Part shown: positions 30,700 through 36,880 of the stretch, piece after piece
How the letters are laid out: the number at the start of each line of letters is the position of its first letter
How positions within the stretch are numbered: the first letter of the stretch is position 1
Source of the DNA: the human T2T-CHM13v2.0 reference genome, Homo sapiens
Length of the DNA stretch: 64,000 bases
Reading direction: 5' to 3' (one strand)
NCBI RefSeq assembly: GCF_009914755.1
Contig: NC_060942.1
Notes under the pieces: model-generated
Database searches by the model: none
The model's input: only the letters and a program-made list of their open reading frames with translations
What the model was told of the DNA's origin: nothing
Program-made: the position numbers and the translations under genes

Positions 30700-31103
30700 A
30701 TCCAGAACTTAGAATGTTTCCCCTCCTCATGCTAAACAATGTGGTTGATGCTGCACACTCCTGCTTTCCTTCTTGGAATCTGAAATTTTGATACATACCA
30801 GGCAGAGGCTCTGCCTATGTGACCTGCTCCCTGTAAAAGTCCTGGGCCCTGAGTCTCTAATGAGCTTCCCAACATATCACGTGTCATCACAGTTTGTTGC
30901 TATAGAATTAAGCATATTCCTTATGACTATTCTGGGAGAGGACCTTGGCAGCTTGTGCCTGGTTCCCCCAAGACTTTGCCCCTGTGCACCTTTTCTCTTA
31001 GCTTGGTATCATTTCCCTGTAATAGAACTTGGCTGTGAGTATGACCATATGCTGAGTCCTATAAGAGCCCTCCAAGCCAATCACCAAACCTGGGACCCTG
31101 ACA
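30700..31103 (+). mobile_element. MER68/MER21-family ERVL LTR fragment
   Basis: cctgctttccttcttggaatctg...ctgagtctctaatgagcttccc...tatgctgagtcct...gggaccctgaca. Confidence 0.65.
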
Positions 31104-31408
31104 CAGCTCTCACAGCAATTACATCATTTCTAGCCTCTTCTGTCTAACTTGAGGAGCCCTTCATCACTTCCTGTACCATCACTTCTGCAAGCTTTACCAC
31201 TGGATATGAGCATGTGCCCACTACTAACTAGGGTTACATCATGGTTTATGAAGTAAGGAATGGCAGTTCTTGGGAGGGTGGTTCTCAGCCATGAAAACTG
31301 GTTTCTGTTCTTAGTTCCCTGTTTGTTCTGCCACTTGCTGTTTAATTGTGAGTAATTCGCAATCTTTCTTGGTCTTAATATCCTTACCTATAAAATATCC
31401 TCAATAGC

Positions 31409-32113
<705 letters not shown>

Positions 32114-33224
32114 ATATCTTTACACTTAAGATCTGAATACAACTACAAATATGAATAACATCCATACGTATAATTTTGATTTTCAGTAATTTCTTACCAG
32201 TTTGCTGCTAAAAGGCATATTCTATCAAAGTTTATTGTAAAGTCAAACAGCTCTGTTAAGGGAGGCTCATCTTCTCTGTAATTTCCATTATGGAAAGTAA
32301 TTTTTATATAGTTTTGTTAAAGTTTCTAGAATTATCGAAAAATTAGACATTTAAAGGAAAATTAGACACTTAAAGAAAATGTAATATGCTATAAAATAGG
32401 AATAATACTTAAAATATCTTACTACAAGTTACTTTTCCCAAATAGTAGGATTGTTTTTGAAAGTTAATGTCAGAAAAATAAATAAATAAAAGATATCAGC
32501 AACTTAGTAGTTGGCAGGAAAGGGGTTGGGTTCCTGTCCAGACATTGACCCTCGTCCCTCAGGATGAGGCAGGTGACACAGATAAGAAACAGTCCCTTCT
32601 GAAACATTAAGAACCCCCTTAGCTAAATACATATCAAGATCAAAAGGTTTCAACAAAAGAGCCTAATGAAATACCTCTCTGAGTTTATTTACTACTGCTT
32701 ATGTTTACAAACCTTGCTAATTAGCCACTTCTAATACCACTTATTGTTGAAATATATTTTCCCAAGGATCAACAGAAGACAGGCAAACCCACTAAGAGAC
32801 CCATACGTAAGACTCTGAAGCCTTAAATAGGTTCCTGAGCTGGGCTTGTGGGCAGCCCCATGCCTCTGAGGTTTAAGTAACATCCATGTTTCAATGAAGT
32901 TGCGTGGCCAGTTGTTTTTACAATTACTTACAAAATAAACTGAAATTATATTTCACTATACTTCTGTGTAATTCTTGGCACAAAGGAAAGTGAATTACAA
33001 CTTGTGGATTGCAAAGTCTAAGCATAAGTACACGGCATTCTTGTCTTTGGAGAGCATTCACACTTTTAACCATCCCCTAAATTGAAGTTGCCATCACAAC
33101 TGAAAGCTGTTTCCAAACTCCTCAAGTGAATGTCCCCAGAGCAAAGACTTTCTGACGAATGGTCAGGCTGGCATGTACTAAGTAAGAAGGACAAAGGGAA
33201 AGGTGAGATACGCTGTAGCTAGAC

Positions 33225-33441
33225 TTCATCCATTTTCATTTCTGGATTTTTCTACTAAAAACTGAAAAGCAGAGCTTTCAAATCAGAGAAAAACTAGAGA
33301 ACAATTAGCGTAGCAAAGACATAAATAACAAACATTTTAAGAGGCATCATGCACGAAAGAAGAATTCCACATTTCCCTAGTTGAATTTACATGTGGATTT
33401 TGTTTAAATATGTATCCAATGCAGAGTTATAATCACTAACA
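33225..33441 (+). repeat. Arm 1 (donor) of a 217-bp inverted duplication
   Basis: Reverse complement of 34468-34684 with 7 mismatches and no indels (hand-aligned). Confidence 0.97.
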
Positions 33442-33492
33442 ATGGCCACTTCTCACAAGCATACATTAATGTTAGCAATCCGAAAATTTTAC

Positions 33493-33547
33493 CTCCAAAT
33501 CCTAAGAGAGACTTTGAGCACAGATAGAGACAGATGAAAGATGGCAT
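33493..33547 (-). CDS. EPB41L3: Candidate coding part of an alternative upstream EPB41L3 exon (MPSFICLYLCSKSLLGFG, phase-1 donor)
   Basis: ATG at 33547 with A at -3; 18 codons then G|GTAAAA donor at 33493. Acceptor TTTCTGTGTTTCACAG precedes 33617 and TATAAATA lies at 33745-33738. Assignment to EPB41L3 is inference. Confidence 0.4.
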
Positions 33548-33737
33548 GCTGCAGTGCAGCAATTTCAAAGTTACTGTAGCATTGACTCTCCGGCTTCTAT
33601 TCCTCCAGGAATATTCTCTGTGAAACACAGAAAGATCCCGGAAAGGTAAAAGCAATTGCTTTCTATCACATCCAGATTCTCTCCTTAAATTCAACACTCC
33701 AAAAATCAAGCCGGGGCAGGAAGCAATAACTGCACAG

Positions 33738-33745
33738 TATTTTAT
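33738..33745 (-). promoter_or_regulatory. Candidate TATA box (TATAAATA)
   Basis: Canonical TATAWAW on the minus strand about 250 bp upstream of the 33493 donor. Confidence 0.35.
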
Positions 33746-34334
33746 AGTGTCCTTCAGATTCTTCTTCTAATATTTCCCCTGGTTCCCAGTGTAGCTTCTC
33801 CGCATGACTGTGCAGCATTCTGCAAAGTGCTGTAGATCCCAGCAGCAGAGAAACAGAAAACCTAAAGTGTCATGGGGCCACCTATGACCACTGGCTTCTG
33901 AGCATCATCATTTTGCTTGATATTGAATTTTCAGTTTAGTTATGTATATATTGTTATCCTTATCTTTCACAATTGTCATATTAATACACATTTTGAACAT
34001 CTACAGATAGGGCTACTGAGATCAACAGGATAATTATACTGATTTTTGCTTTTAATTTTGCCAAAGACTGCATTGAAATTCTCCCCTTGTACTTTCTTTC
34101 TTCATATTTCCTTCAAAGGAGTCTGAGCTCATTTAACTTGCTTTATTCTCTAAAGTTCAACAATACTAGTAGGACTACACTGGCCACACCGATAAGCAGC
34201 AATCTGTACTAAGCAAAGAGGGCCAGTTCCAACCAAGCCAGTCCACTGATAGGAGGCTCCAGGGTTGGGGGGGTGGCGGGGTGGGGCAGGGCCCAGAGAG
34301 AGCAAAAAACAACATTTTTTTGGTTGTCTATTAT

Positions 34335-34725
34335 GCTGTATGCCAGCACTTACAGTTCCATTTGTAAACATTAATTTAATCCTAAGTCAACTCAGTGAAC
34401 ATTGTATTATCCACATCCCCATTTTTACAGATAAAAAAAGATCTCAAAATGATCAAGAAATTGTTACTGTTAGTGATTATAACTCTGCATTGGATACATA
34501 TTTAAACAAAATCCACATGTAAATTCAACTAGGGAAATGTGGAATTCTTCTTTAATGCATGATGCCTCTTAAAATGTTTGTTATTCATGGCTTTGCTATG
34601 CTAATTGTCCTCTAGTTTTTCTCTGATTTGAAAGCTCTGCTTTTCAGTTTTTAGTAGAAAAACCCAGAAATGAAAATGGATGAAACCAAGAAATTTGCCC
34701 CACATCTCCTGCAAACCAATAAGAA
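34335..34725 (-). mobile_element. MIR split by the inverted insertion
   Basis: cccatttttacagat...gatcaagaaatt [insert] caagaaatttgccccac follows the MIR core (ttaagtaacttgcccaagg). Confidence 0.65.
34468..34684 (-). repeat. Arm 2 (inserted copy) of the 217-bp inverted duplication
   Basis: Flanked by direct repeat caagaaatt at 34454-34462 and 34687-34695, with fillers gttac and ac. Confidence 0.97.
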
Positions 34726-34729
34726 GATG

Positions 34730-35560
34730 ACAATCTTACAGAAAAATGATCAAAGGATAAGAATAGACATTTTGTGGCAGGGAAAGCACATCATGCCCAT
34801 AAGCATGAGAAGTGGTGGTCAGCACCATTAGTAGTCAGATAAATGTAAATTAAACCCCAGTGAGAGAGAACATAATGCAATAAAGAGCCTCAATTTTATA
34901 CCCATTCACTTAGCAAAAAATGAAAAAGTCTCACAATTCCAGGTGTTGGAAGGAATGTGAATCCACATTCTAATGAGAGTGAAAAACTGGGCAACCACTT
35001 TGGAAAACAATTTGGTACTGTCTCCTGATGTTGAACATTCATACGCCCTACTACCCAGCAATTCTATTCCCACCCAAGAGAAACTGGCACATGTGCATAG
35101 GAGTTACAGTTACCTTCAACAGTGCTGAAACAGCTCCCTCCACAATAGCAAAATCGTGAAGACACCCACATGCTTATCAAGAAGACATTGTAAAAATAAA
35201 CTGCAGTATGTTTTACACACTGGAATATTAAACAATAGAACAAAACAGATGTTATTACAGCATATCACAATGTAGATGAAACTTCACAATAAAAAATCTC
35301 AGAGAATTATATACAACAAGATGTCCTTTTTAAAAACTTAAACACAATTAAAATTTAAAATTTTCTTTTCAGAGTGTAATAAGATTGCATAAACAGGAAA
35401 GTAAAGGCATACTTTACATGCCAGACAGGATGCTGTCTCTGTTAGGTGGAGAGAGAGGATAAGACAAGGAAATTGCCAAATGGTGAGATGAAGGTTATCG
35501 TCGAAATCCTAGCTGTTGTTTTGGCAGGTGGTTCATAGGTGCTTCTTATTTAAGATGTCT
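34730..35560 (+). mobile_element. Old L1ME fragment
   Basis: aaccactttggaaaacaatttgg...cccagcaattctattcc...aaataaactgcagtatg. Confidence 0.65.
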
Positions 35561-36324
35561 AATAGATAAGTAAAGAGGAAACACCGATGAGTACATATCA
35601 TTAACCAAAGATTATTAGTAATCTAATTTTGTACCTCTGAGGTCCTAAAAACACCCAAAGGACCAAGATAAAAACAACAAATCAACATAAATCAGGCCCA
35701 AGTCATCCAGTGATGCTTCAGGAGCTCAAATTCAGTCCTGCCAGGCTCCAAAGCCCAAGCTCTTCCTTTCTGAACTAGAGATCCAAAGCCATACAAGTTA
35801 CTCCCATTCTCTCATGATGATGAGTGACCTTGTCTATAGGTCATAGCCAGAGCTGATAAACTTATTTTTTCCAGGACTGTAGAAAGACAAGAAAGATATT
35901 ACCAATCTGACAGAGACTTCTGGGCAACAGAAAGTCTGAGCTAGGCTAGAATCCTGGACCTACCACATACTGTAACCAATGTCTCTAGATGGGAATGTTT
36001 CACTCTCTCAGCCTCAATTACCTTAGGATGTGAGGATTAGAGATGACGGTGAAGATGATGATCACGAAGACTGACACTGTTGGTTGCTTATAAGCCAGAG
36101 TTTTATCAACATTTTAAAATATGACCCTCAGTGCAACCTATAAGGCATGAATTACTATTAATCCCAATTTAAGGGTAAGGTGATTGAGAGAAAAAGAGCT
36201 TAAGAAATTTCCACAAGGTCATACAATTATGATGAAAGATGGCTGGCTCTCTCCTGGCTCCATTGCCCATGCTCTAAACGTCTAAGATAAGTACACACTT
36301 CTGTATAGAAACAGACACTCATTT

Positions 36325-36880
36325 ATGGATAAATACATATGTATACATATACTCTCATGTATAGATACACAAAAATGGGGTAGATACACTCATACACACA
36401 TATGTATAGACATGTGTATAGATACACTTATACACACAGATACACACTCAAGCACACAGACACACACCCATACGAATATGTATAGACACACATGTATAGA
36501 TACATACTCATACACATGTGTATAGGCACACAGGTATAGACACATACTCATGCCATGTGTATAGACACATATATAGATACATATACATACATGTATATAG
36601 ACACACATGTATAGATGCACTCACAAATATATAGATACAGACTCATATGCACATATAGGCACACATGTATATATACATATTCACATGCAAATATGTATAC
36701 ATATATAGATAAGTATACATATATATGCACACGCACATATACAATCATATATCCATTAGTATCAACACATATTCATACACACATATATATATAGATACAT
36801 GCTCATGCAGACATATGTATAGACACACATATGCATAAATGCCCACACTTATGCATATGTATTCACAAATACACACAAAA
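36325..36880. repeat. Degenerate (TA/CA)n purine-pyrimidine low-complexity tract
   Basis: About 550 bp of tatagatacaca/catgtata units. Confidence 0.9.

What the first reader, a model, noticed from the sequence alone, without database searches (positions are those of the whole stretch)
33493..33760. Candidate TATA-driven alternative exon adding a Cys-containing hydrophobic N-terminal extension to protein 4.1B
Seen on the minus strand: TATAAATA (33745-33738), two tiny uORFs that stop early (ATG TGA at 33671; ATG CTA CAG TAA at 33582), then AGCATGC at 33547 reading MPSFICLYLCSKSLLGFG and a phase-1 donor GAG|GTAAAA. From memory, EPB41L3 exon 2 begins AACAATCAACC-ATG (11 nt). If so, G plus 11 nt gives E-Q-S-T in frame with the MTTESGSD start, a 22-aa extension. 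Protein 4.1 genes (EPB41, EPB41L3) are known to use multiple alternative first exons. The two Cys in a hydrophobic stretch suggest palmitoylation or membrane targeting (inference).
Basis: partly seen in the sequence, partly recalled or inferred. Interest (0 to 1): 0.7.

Follow-up and report, generated by a model that had tools for sequence, protein, structure and literature searches.

The report
Conserved upstream start exon of EPB41L3
This stretch is the intact human copy of a short alternative first coding exon of the protein 4.1B gene that many other mammals are predicted to use to add a highly conserved, cysteine-bearing 22-residue head to the protein, although no human or ape gene model found here uses it.

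Summary
The one correction is that the TATA string is TATAAAATA, 33746-33738. The recalled start of exon 2 is real: 11 nt precede the ATG behind a strong acceptor, 88 kb downstream. The frame therefore gives MPSFICLYLCSKSLLGFG-EQST-MTTESGSD.

The motif pattern alone is not above chance. 81 of 100 simulated windows hold such a composite.

Comparison settles it. All 199 listed named 4.1B proteins, from 34 mammals, carry this 18-mer followed by EQSTM. Six unnamed read-through ORFs keep 17-18 of the 18 residues while their flanks fall to 9/40 and 5/29. Only Phe4 and Phe17 vary, to Leu or Val.

So this is a real, conserved alternative 5' coding exon. Three things remain open:
- Human use: 0 of 42 listed human isoforms carry the extension, and no ape or macaque protein surfaced.
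- The TATA promoter.
- Palmitoylation.

It is a new member of a known kind. Interest is moderate.

The parts
33738..33746 (-). TATAAAATA, candidate TATA box 199 nt upstream of the start codon
   Evidence: TATAAAA occurs 10 times and TATAAA 43 times on this strand of the 64-kb window, so one within 60-300 nt of a given ATG has a chance of roughly 4-16% (my arithmetic). The residues compatible with it (T-I-K in this frame) are kept in P0122 and P0123 only.
33493..33717 (-). Proposed alternative first exon of EPB41L3. The 3' end is firm; the 5' end is inferred, about 30 nt downstream of the TATA.
   Evidence: The 3' end is fixed by the donor and by the orthologous proteins. The 5' extent is inferred. 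Rabbit models carry 29 more in-frame residues that are colinear with human 33636-33548, so there the exon reaches at least 87 nt upstream of the ATG. The region is AT-rich and is not a CpG island: GC 0.39 and CpG o/e 0.23, against 0.73 and 0.81 at exon 1.
33666..33671 (-). Mini-uORF ATG TGA
   Evidence: Its conservation is unclear; the residues compatible with it are seen in P0122 and P0123 only (back-translation inference).
33571..33582 (-). Mini-uORF ATG CTA CAG TAA
   Evidence: Human has N-A (AAT GCT) here. P0123 and P0124 have S-A and P0125 has T-P, so the ATG is not general.
33493..33547 (-). Coding part: ATG plus 17 codons (MPSFICLYLCSKSLLGFG) plus the first base of the split Glu codon
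   Evidence: The 18-mer is identical in 159 named proteins and has one substitution in 40 more (F4L in 20, F4V in 1, F17L in 19); all 199 continue with EQSTM. It is an invariant block in the alignment of 7 read-through translations. No second copy exists in the genome.
33485..33492 (-). Donor site GAG|GTAAAATT, phase 1
   Evidence: It scores a modest 1.80 bits on a rough matrix built from recalled frequencies, against 4.52 for the exon-1 donor; 194 of 3416 GT sites on this strand score at least as well. The residues G-K spanning it are kept in 5 of 6 other read-through sequences and are G-N in the sixth. The same site therefore serves in species whose models use the exon.
33225..33453 (.). Arm 1 of an inverted duplication. 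It is intronic, starts 40 nt downstream of the donor, and is the ancestral copy.
   Evidence: P0124 reads on into it.
34456..34684 (.). Arm 2 of the inverted duplication, 710 nt upstream of the TATA. It is the derived copy.
   Evidence: 229 nt at 95% complementarity; 97% over 217 nt, and no other copy in the genome.

Best explanation
The stretch is the human ortholog of a conserved mammalian alternative 5' exon of EPB41L3 (protein 4.1B). It lies between the distal start of the gene (window 86830 in the hub table) and the CpG-island exon 1 (162-78). The exon carries its own start codon ('AUG0', 33547) and 55 coding bases. Its phase-1 donor (33493|33492) joins the normal acceptor of exon 2, 88,141 nt downstream. 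The 11-nt leader of exon 2, untranslated in the reference mRNA, is then read as (E)QST, and the canonical Met becomes residue 23. The product is 4.1B with a 22-residue hydrophobic N-terminal extension holding two invariant Cys and one Lys. I think the human copy, which is intact in every part, is most likely still used from a non-CpG, tissue-restricted promoter just upstream, possibly the TATA at 33746. I also think the extension serves as a membrane-binding, possibly S-acylated, head. Shown here: the sequence, the frame, the orthologous models, and the conservation island. Inferred: human transcription, the transcription start, translation from AUG0, and lipidation.
For: The sequence and frame are verified. 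A search with the 47-residue read-through ORF found 311 proteins among 336 candidates; of the 120 listed, 114 are named 4.1B proteins that start with the 18-mer plus EQSTMTTESGSD. A second search added 85 more proteins, all carrying the extension. In all, 199 of 199 named proteins from 34 taxa and 7 orders have it. They come from several pipelines: NCBI models, and UniProt entries for dog, cow, sheep and bats (names). Six unnamed read-through ORFs show a conservation island that matches the ORF. It scores 18/18 in five and 17/18 in one, while the 40 codons upstream score 37, 28, 27, 21, 15 and 9 of 40, and the 29 downstream score 29, 17, 17, 11, 7 and 5 of 29. The only substitutions are Phe to Leu or Val at positions 4 and 17. 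A third of possible non-synonymous or stop changes would be hydrophobic-to-hydrophobic, so 4 independent events all of that kind have p of about 0.01 (the count of events is my estimate). The upstream AG at 33619-33618 is not kept in other sequences, and the region is coding exon in the rabbit models, so this is a first exon rather than a cassette exon. A is at -3 of the ATG.
Against: No transcript data could be consulted. 0 of the 42 listed human isoforms, and 0 of the 78 listed ape isoforms, that carry the exon-2 peptide have an extension. In one search a human, ape or macaque protein with the extension should have ranked above marmoset (93% identity), and none did; among catarrhines only Colobus appears. 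The hub table lists no EPB41L3 exon here. The donor is unremarkable, and the motif pattern is expected by chance. The TATA is not generally conserved. No orthologous DNA could be fetched, so synonymous versus non-synonymous change is untested. Some animal models may have been propagated by protein homology rather than by that species' own RNA. The peptide was absent from the 11 held supplementary files of one human N-terminomics paper, two of which were cut when stored.
Confidence: 0.55

Rival explanations
1. It is the same conserved mammalian exon, but in humans (and apes, perhaps all catarrhines) it is a silent or nearly silent relic. Its promoter is no longer used, and the reading frame is intact only because too little time has passed for it to decay.
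For: No human, ape or macaque protein with the extension appears in a database that holds 42 human and many ape isoforms. The hub table shows no exon here. A lineage-young inverted duplication (arms 95-97% alike, unique in the genome) sits 710 nt upstream of the TATA and could have disturbed the promoter. By my arithmetic about one substitution is expected in 58 nt since the ape ancestor, so intactness does not discriminate.
Against: ATG, frame, both Cys, donor and TATA are all intact in human. The primate-like read-through ORF P0122 is 100% identical over the 47 residues. Marmoset and Colobus models carry the extension. Absence from annotation is weak evidence for a tissue-restricted non-CpG promoter.
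Confidence: 0.3
2. It is a real transcribed 5' exon, but the conservation reflects an RNA or DNA element (5' UTR, promoter-proximal or splicing signal). The AUG0 peptide would then have no function of its own, or would not be made.
For: Only protein-level comparisons were possible and synonymous sites were not seen. About 10 codons upstream of the ATG are also well conserved (TVTLKLLHCS).
Against: The invariant block starts 2 codons before the ATG and ends at the donor. All observed changes are conservative Phe to Leu or Val, and the Cys and Lys are invariant in 205 of 205 sequences. With A at -3, AUG0 would be met by scanning ribosomes before the canonical AUG.
Confidence: 0.08
3. It is a chance intronic pseudo-exon, and the animal models are an annotation artefact copied between species.
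For: The pattern alone is expected by chance: 81 of 100 simulations hold at least one such composite. The peptide comes from a pyrimidine-rich tract, which by itself gives F, L, S, C and Y codons (one search prints the DNA).
Against: The six unnamed read-through ORFs owe nothing to gene models and still show 17-18 of 18 identity against strongly diverged flanks. Models come from independent pipelines. The rabbit models extend the frame upstream in a species-specific way, which homology transfer would not produce.
Confidence: 0.04

Closest known systems
Predicted 4.1B (band 4.1-like protein 3) isoforms of other mammals that begin MPSFICLYLCSKSLLGFGEQST (for example P0233 Colobus, P0161 Callithrix, P0213 dog, P0210 cow)
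   Same: The same exon, the same junction to exon 2 and the same 22 residues; the human DNA encodes the identical 18-mer and the identical 11-nt leader.
   Different: These are automatic models in other species. No human or ape counterpart was found in the database, and I found no paper describing the isoform.
Alternative first exons of EPB41 (4.1R) and EPB41L3 (4.1B) coupled to acceptor choice at exon 2'/2. Sources: Parra 2003, Gascard 2004, Tan 2005, Parra 2008 and Parra 2012. I saw these only as titles in reference lists, plus one Discussion passage of PMC2614411; the details are recalled.
   Same: The same gene family and the same gene. N-terminal diversity is made by alternative promoters or first exons far upstream of exon 2.
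   Different: As I recall them, those first exons are non-coding and act by deciding whether the AUG1-bearing piece of exon 2 is kept. Here the first exon itself supplies the start codon and 18 codons, and turns the exon-2 leader into codons. None of those papers could be read here.
Alpha isoforms of the MAGUK scaffolds PSD-95 and SAP97, in which an alternative 5' exon encodes a short N-terminal double-cysteine palmitoylation motif (recalled knowledge, no call)
   Same: A short alternative N-terminus with two nearby Cys in a hydrophobic setting, on a membrane-skeleton scaffold and produced by an alternative 5' exon.
   Different: There is no sequence similarity, and lipidation of the 4.1B extension is untested. 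Its Cys are at positions 6 and 10, inside a longer hydrophobic run (mean Kyte-Doolittle 1.23; core FICLYLC 2.66).

Membership tests
Alternative first exon of a protein 4.1 gene | Donor spliced to the acceptor of exon 2 of the same gene | tested here: met
   Met for orthologs: 199 of 199 named proteins read 18-mer, then EQST, then MTTESGSD, which is exactly this donor joined to the exon-2 acceptor. Not shown for human transcripts.
Alternative first exon of a protein 4.1 gene | It is a first exon with its own transcription start, not an internal cassette exon | tested here: inconclusive
   The only good upstream acceptor (cag| at 33620-33618) is not kept in 5 other read-through sequences, and the region is coding exon in the rabbit models. 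A TATA lies 199 nt upstream. No CAGE or 5' RACE data were available.
Alternative first exon of a protein 4.1 gene | Transcribed in the organism in question (human) | not testable with these tools
   No RNA data were available. Indirectly negative: no human or ape protein with the extension was found.
Protein-coding exon under purifying selection | Conservation confined to the ORF, with flanks diverging | tested here: met
   ORF 18/18 in five and 17/18 in one. Upstream 40 codons: 37 down to 9 of 40. Downstream 29 codons: 29 down to 5 of 29. The invariant block runs C72 to G92 of the human translation, apart from F90.
Protein-coding exon under purifying selection | Excess of synonymous over non-synonymous change | not testable with these tools
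   No orthologous DNA was obtainable. One search gave 3 chance bacterial hits and one search gave none.
N-terminal S-palmitoylation motif | Cysteine(s) near the N-terminus in a hydrophobic or basic setting | tested here: met
   C6 and C10 sit within FICLYLC and are followed by K12. All three are invariant in 205 of 205 sequences.
N-terminal S-palmitoylation motif | Demonstrated acylation | not testable with these tools
   This needs acyl-exchange or metabolic labelling.
Cleavable secretory signal peptide | Positively charged n-region, h-region of 7-15 hydrophobic residues, small residues at -3 and -1 | tested here: inconclusive
   By eye: there is no basic residue before the hydrophobic core, the core is 7 residues, and G at -3 and -1 before E19 would fit. 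No predictor was run. A cytoskeletal FERM protein is an unlikely secretory cargo (inference).
Transposable-element-derived exon | Multiple related copies in the genome | tested here: not met
   The 451-nt and 1611-nt queries found only themselves and the local inverted arm. The stretch is not in the hub's masked list. The search skips very common words, so this is a lower bound.

The most novel reading that the evidence does not exclude
Humans make, in some restricted cell type, an unannotated 4.1B proteoform started at AUG0. Its invariant Cys6 and Cys10 would be S-acylated, giving this membrane-skeleton scaffold and tumour suppressor a lipid anchor of its own that directs it to particular membrane domains. 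In addition, the ape-age inverted duplication that brackets the exon and its promoter (arms 33225-33453 and 34456-34684) would have changed how or where that promoter fires in apes.
Probability: 0.15. Interest if true: 0.65.

Novelty: new member of a known kind. Interest (0 to 1): 0.5.

Why it matters
Protein 4.1B links membrane proteins to the spectrin-actin skeleton at paranodes, synapses and epithelial junctions, and it is silenced in many tumours. Its known N-terminal variety comes from non-coding first exons. A coding first exon whose 18 residues are almost invariant across seven mammalian orders points to a function nobody appears to have studied, plausibly direct membrane anchoring. If the exon is used in human, three consequences follow:
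- The reference proteome lacks a proteoform.
- Proteomic searches cannot find its N-terminal peptide.
- Variants at T2T chr18:5737493-5737547 are currently read as deep-intronic.

If apes have lost its use, it is a dated example of a conserved proteoform being switched off.

Tried and rejected
- **Chance reading.** This was my first view (about 85-90%, stated). It rested and on the pyrimidine-rich DNA. I abandoned it.
- **Internal cassette exon using cag| at 33620-33618 (125 nt).** Rejected because that AG is not kept elsewhere and the region is exonic in rabbit.
- **Transposon or repeat origin.** No other genomic copies were found.
- **Structured RNA.** Rfam at E<=1 over 31000-36500 gave nothing between 32003 and 35575, only Alu-type hits at 31720-32002 and weak sub-threshold hits elsewhere.
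- **Paralogous exon elsewhere in the genome.** The 18-mer finds only itself.
- **Orthologous DNA for a codon test.** Genome contigs gave 3 chance bacterial hits at 58-59% over 22-29 residues, and viral contigs gave none.
- **ESM Atlas on residues 1-30 of P0233.** No usable hit.
- **Papers.** Seven full-text searches found no description of this exon or peptide; the peptide string itself gave 0 papers. Gascard 2004 (pmid 15488987), Parra 2012 (PMC3372232) and Parra 2008 (PMC2206138) are not held. A description there cannot be excluded.
- **Splicing to the second AG 52 nt upstream of exon 2.** This would run into a stop (my reading).

Full report
**Observation.** On the minus strand the window reads as follows:
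- TATAAAATA at 33746-33738.
- ATGTGA at 33671-33666.
- ATGCTACAGTAA at 33582-33571.
- An ATG at 33547 followed by 17 sense codons, giving MPSFICLYLCSKSLLGFG.
- Then G (33493) and GTAAAA.

**Place in the gene.** Exon 1 of the reference mRNA (162-78) has no acceptor in front of it. It lies in a CpG island (GC 0.73, CpG o/e 0.81) and ends CAG|GTAACT. The candidate lies 33 kb upstream of it, between that promoter and the distal gene start given by the hub table (86830).

The whole genome could be searched. One of them lies inside the gene, at C18:5649351-5649338 on the minus strand, which is window position -54649. There it follows ...CCCTTTTTTCTGCTTGCAG| and opens an ORF MTTESGSD...VRRE ending at |GTGAGC.

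The leader is therefore 11 nt. G plus 11 nt reads E-Q-S-T, and the frame runs into the canonical Met. The intron would be 88,141 nt long.

**Is the pattern more than chance? No.** I used a rough donor matrix built from recalled base frequencies.
- The site scores 1.80 bits, against 4.52 for the exon-1 donor.
- 194 of 3416 GT sites on this strand score at least as well.
- 21 distinct phase-1 donors of that quality are preceded by an ATG with 18 or more open codons.
- Requiring TATAAA 60-300 nt upstream leaves 2 on this strand (the other lies in an Alu at 31954) and 4 on the other strand.
- First-order Markov simulations give a mean of 1.59, and 81 of 100 hold at least one.

The peptide's hydrophobic, Cys-bearing look also follows from a pyrimidine-rich tract. 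At this point I rated the finding a chance pseudo-exon.

**Comparison reverses that.** I searched the 5.8-billion-protein collection with the 47-residue read-through ORF (P0121), asking for longer proteins at E<=10. It returned 311 proteins among 336 candidates.

Of the 120 listed, 114 are named band 4.1-like protein 3 or Protein 4.1. All 114 begin with the 18-mer followed by EQSTMTTESGSD.

A second search used residues 1-83 of the Colobus protein P0233. It listed 120 proteins, 85 of them new, and all carry the extension.

Altogether, 199 of 199 named proteins have it:

| Form of the 18-mer | Proteins |
|---|---|
| Identical to human | 159 |
| F4L | 20 |
| F4V | 1 |
| F17L | 19 |

All 199 continue with EQSTM. 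By my count of the name columns they come from 34 taxa: carnivores, bats, ruminants and whales, moles, cricetid rodents, rabbit, and four primates (Microcebus, Otolemur, Callithrix, Colobus). The order assignments are from my own knowledge. Both lists were cut at 120, so other species, mouse included, may be missing.

**Evidence independent of gene models.** Six unnamed proteins (P0122-P0127) are plain ORFs read through this stretch of genomic fragments. Aligned with the human translation, the invariant block runs from two residues before the Met to the Gly-Gly over the donor. Only residue 17 of the 18-mer, Phe, differs within it, in one sequence. Identity to human by segment:

| Segment | Identity in P0122 to P0127 |
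|---|---|
| ORF, 18 codons | 18, 18, 18, 18, 18, 17 of 18 |
| 40 codons upstream | 37, 28, 27, 21, 15, 9 of 40 |
| 29 codons downstream | 29, 17, 17, 11, 7, 5 of 29 |

The only substitutions anywhere are Phe to Leu or Val. Cys6, Cys10 and Lys12 are invariant in 205 of 205 sequences. About a third of possible non-synonymous or stop changes would be hydrophobic-to-hydrophobic. Four independent events all of that kind would have p of about 0.01 (the number of independent events is my estimate).

Orthologous DNA could not be fetched, so synonymous change was not seen. A nucleotide-level constraint is not formally excluded.

**First exon or cassette exon?** Human has a decent acceptor, ...ctttctgtgtttcacag|, at 33620-33618. 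That would make a 125-nt internal exon.
- The His-Arg pair that holds this AG is His-Gly, His-Cys, Pro-Trp, Arg-Trp or His-Trp in the other sequences.
- 18 rabbit models start 29 residues further upstream. That part is colinear with human 33636-33548 apart from a frame shift, so the region is exon there.

A first exon with a start more than 87 nt upstream of AUG0 fits best.

The TATA lies 199 nt upstream. TATAAAA occurs 10 times on this strand, so its presence is mild support. The compatible residues are kept in only 2 of 6 other sequences. The region is AT-rich and CpG-poor, as in tissue-restricted promoters. The ATG of the second mini-uORF is absent in P0123-P0125, so the uORFs look incidental.

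**Human status.** A search with the exon-2 peptide returned 3778 hits among 4094 candidates, with 120 listed. The list holds 42 human and 78 ape entries, and 120 of 120 start at MTTESGSD.

In one search, a human, ape or macaque protein with the extension would have outranked marmoset (93% identity). None appeared.

The hub table shows no exon here. The peptide is absent from the 11 held supplementary files of a human N-terminomics study, two of which were cut when stored.

The human copy is nonetheless intact in ATG, frame, donor and TATA. By my arithmetic only about one substitution is expected in 58 nt since the ape ancestor. Intactness therefore cannot separate 'used' from 'recently silenced'.

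**Mechanism.**
- Shown: the junction and the product in orthologs.
- Inferred: an upstream non-CpG promoter fires; AUG0 (A at -3) is the first good start; 22 residues are added ahead of the unstructured headpiece.
- The extension is hydrophobic (mean Kyte-Doolittle 1.23; core 2.66) but too short to span a bilayer.
- Invariant double Cys suggests S-acylation or interfacial membrane binding.
- A signal-peptide reading is possible on paper but unlikely for this protein.

**What is known.** Alternative promoters and first exons coupled to exon 2'/2 splicing are established for 4.1R and 4.1B. For this I saw one Discussion passage of PMC2614411 and titles in the reference lists. The primary papers are not held. 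As I recall them, those first exons are non-coding.

Seven literature searches found nothing on this exon or peptide. It is thus present in automatic models of other species, undescribed in the print I could search, and absent from the human protein set. That makes it a new member of a known kind.

**In passing.** The exon and its putative promoter sit in the 1002-nt spacer of an inverted duplication: 33225-33453 and 34456-34684, 229 nt at 95% complementarity.
- BLAST gives 97% over 217 nt, and the arms are unique in the genome.
- The arm next to the exon is ancestral, because P0124 reads on into it.
- The upstream arm is the derived copy, of roughly ape age by divergence (my estimate).

Whether this bears on the missing ape models is speculation.

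Noticed in passing
window 33225-33453 and 34456-34684: An inverted duplication: 229 nt at 95% complementarity, or 97% over 217 nt. Both arms are unique in the genome. It brackets the exon and its putative promoter in a 1002-nt spacer. The arm beside the exon is ancestral, and the upstream arm is a young inverted copy. In pre-mRNA from the distal promoter the arms could pair into a long double-stranded stem; in DNA they could mediate inversion of the spacer.
   Followed up: partly
L021 (G000:C18:5647838-5650851), minus strand, 52 nt upstream of the exon-2 acceptor: A second acceptor-like site, TTTTCTTGCAG|AGGGAAGG, precedes the used acceptor of EPB41L3 exon 2. Splicing the new exon there would meet a stop after three codons. 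It may relate to the paired acceptors described for 4.1 genes (recalled, not checked).
   Followed up: no
window 31720-32002 (+): An Alu element: Rfam SRP-type hits at 61.5 and 49.8 bits, plus mir-1268 and mir-1285 look-alikes below threshold. Its antisense strand gives the only other ATG/ORF/donor/TATA composite on the minus strand (ATG at 31954).
   Followed up: no
window 35576-35648 (+): A weak SNORD112-like match: 28.8 bits against a gathering score of 58, E 0.0099. Probably chance.
   Followed up: no
proteins P0261-P0279 (rabbit models): 18 rabbit 4.1B models start 29 residues upstream of AUG0, at an in-frame ATG that human lacks. In rabbit the extension would be 51 residues long.
   Followed up: partly
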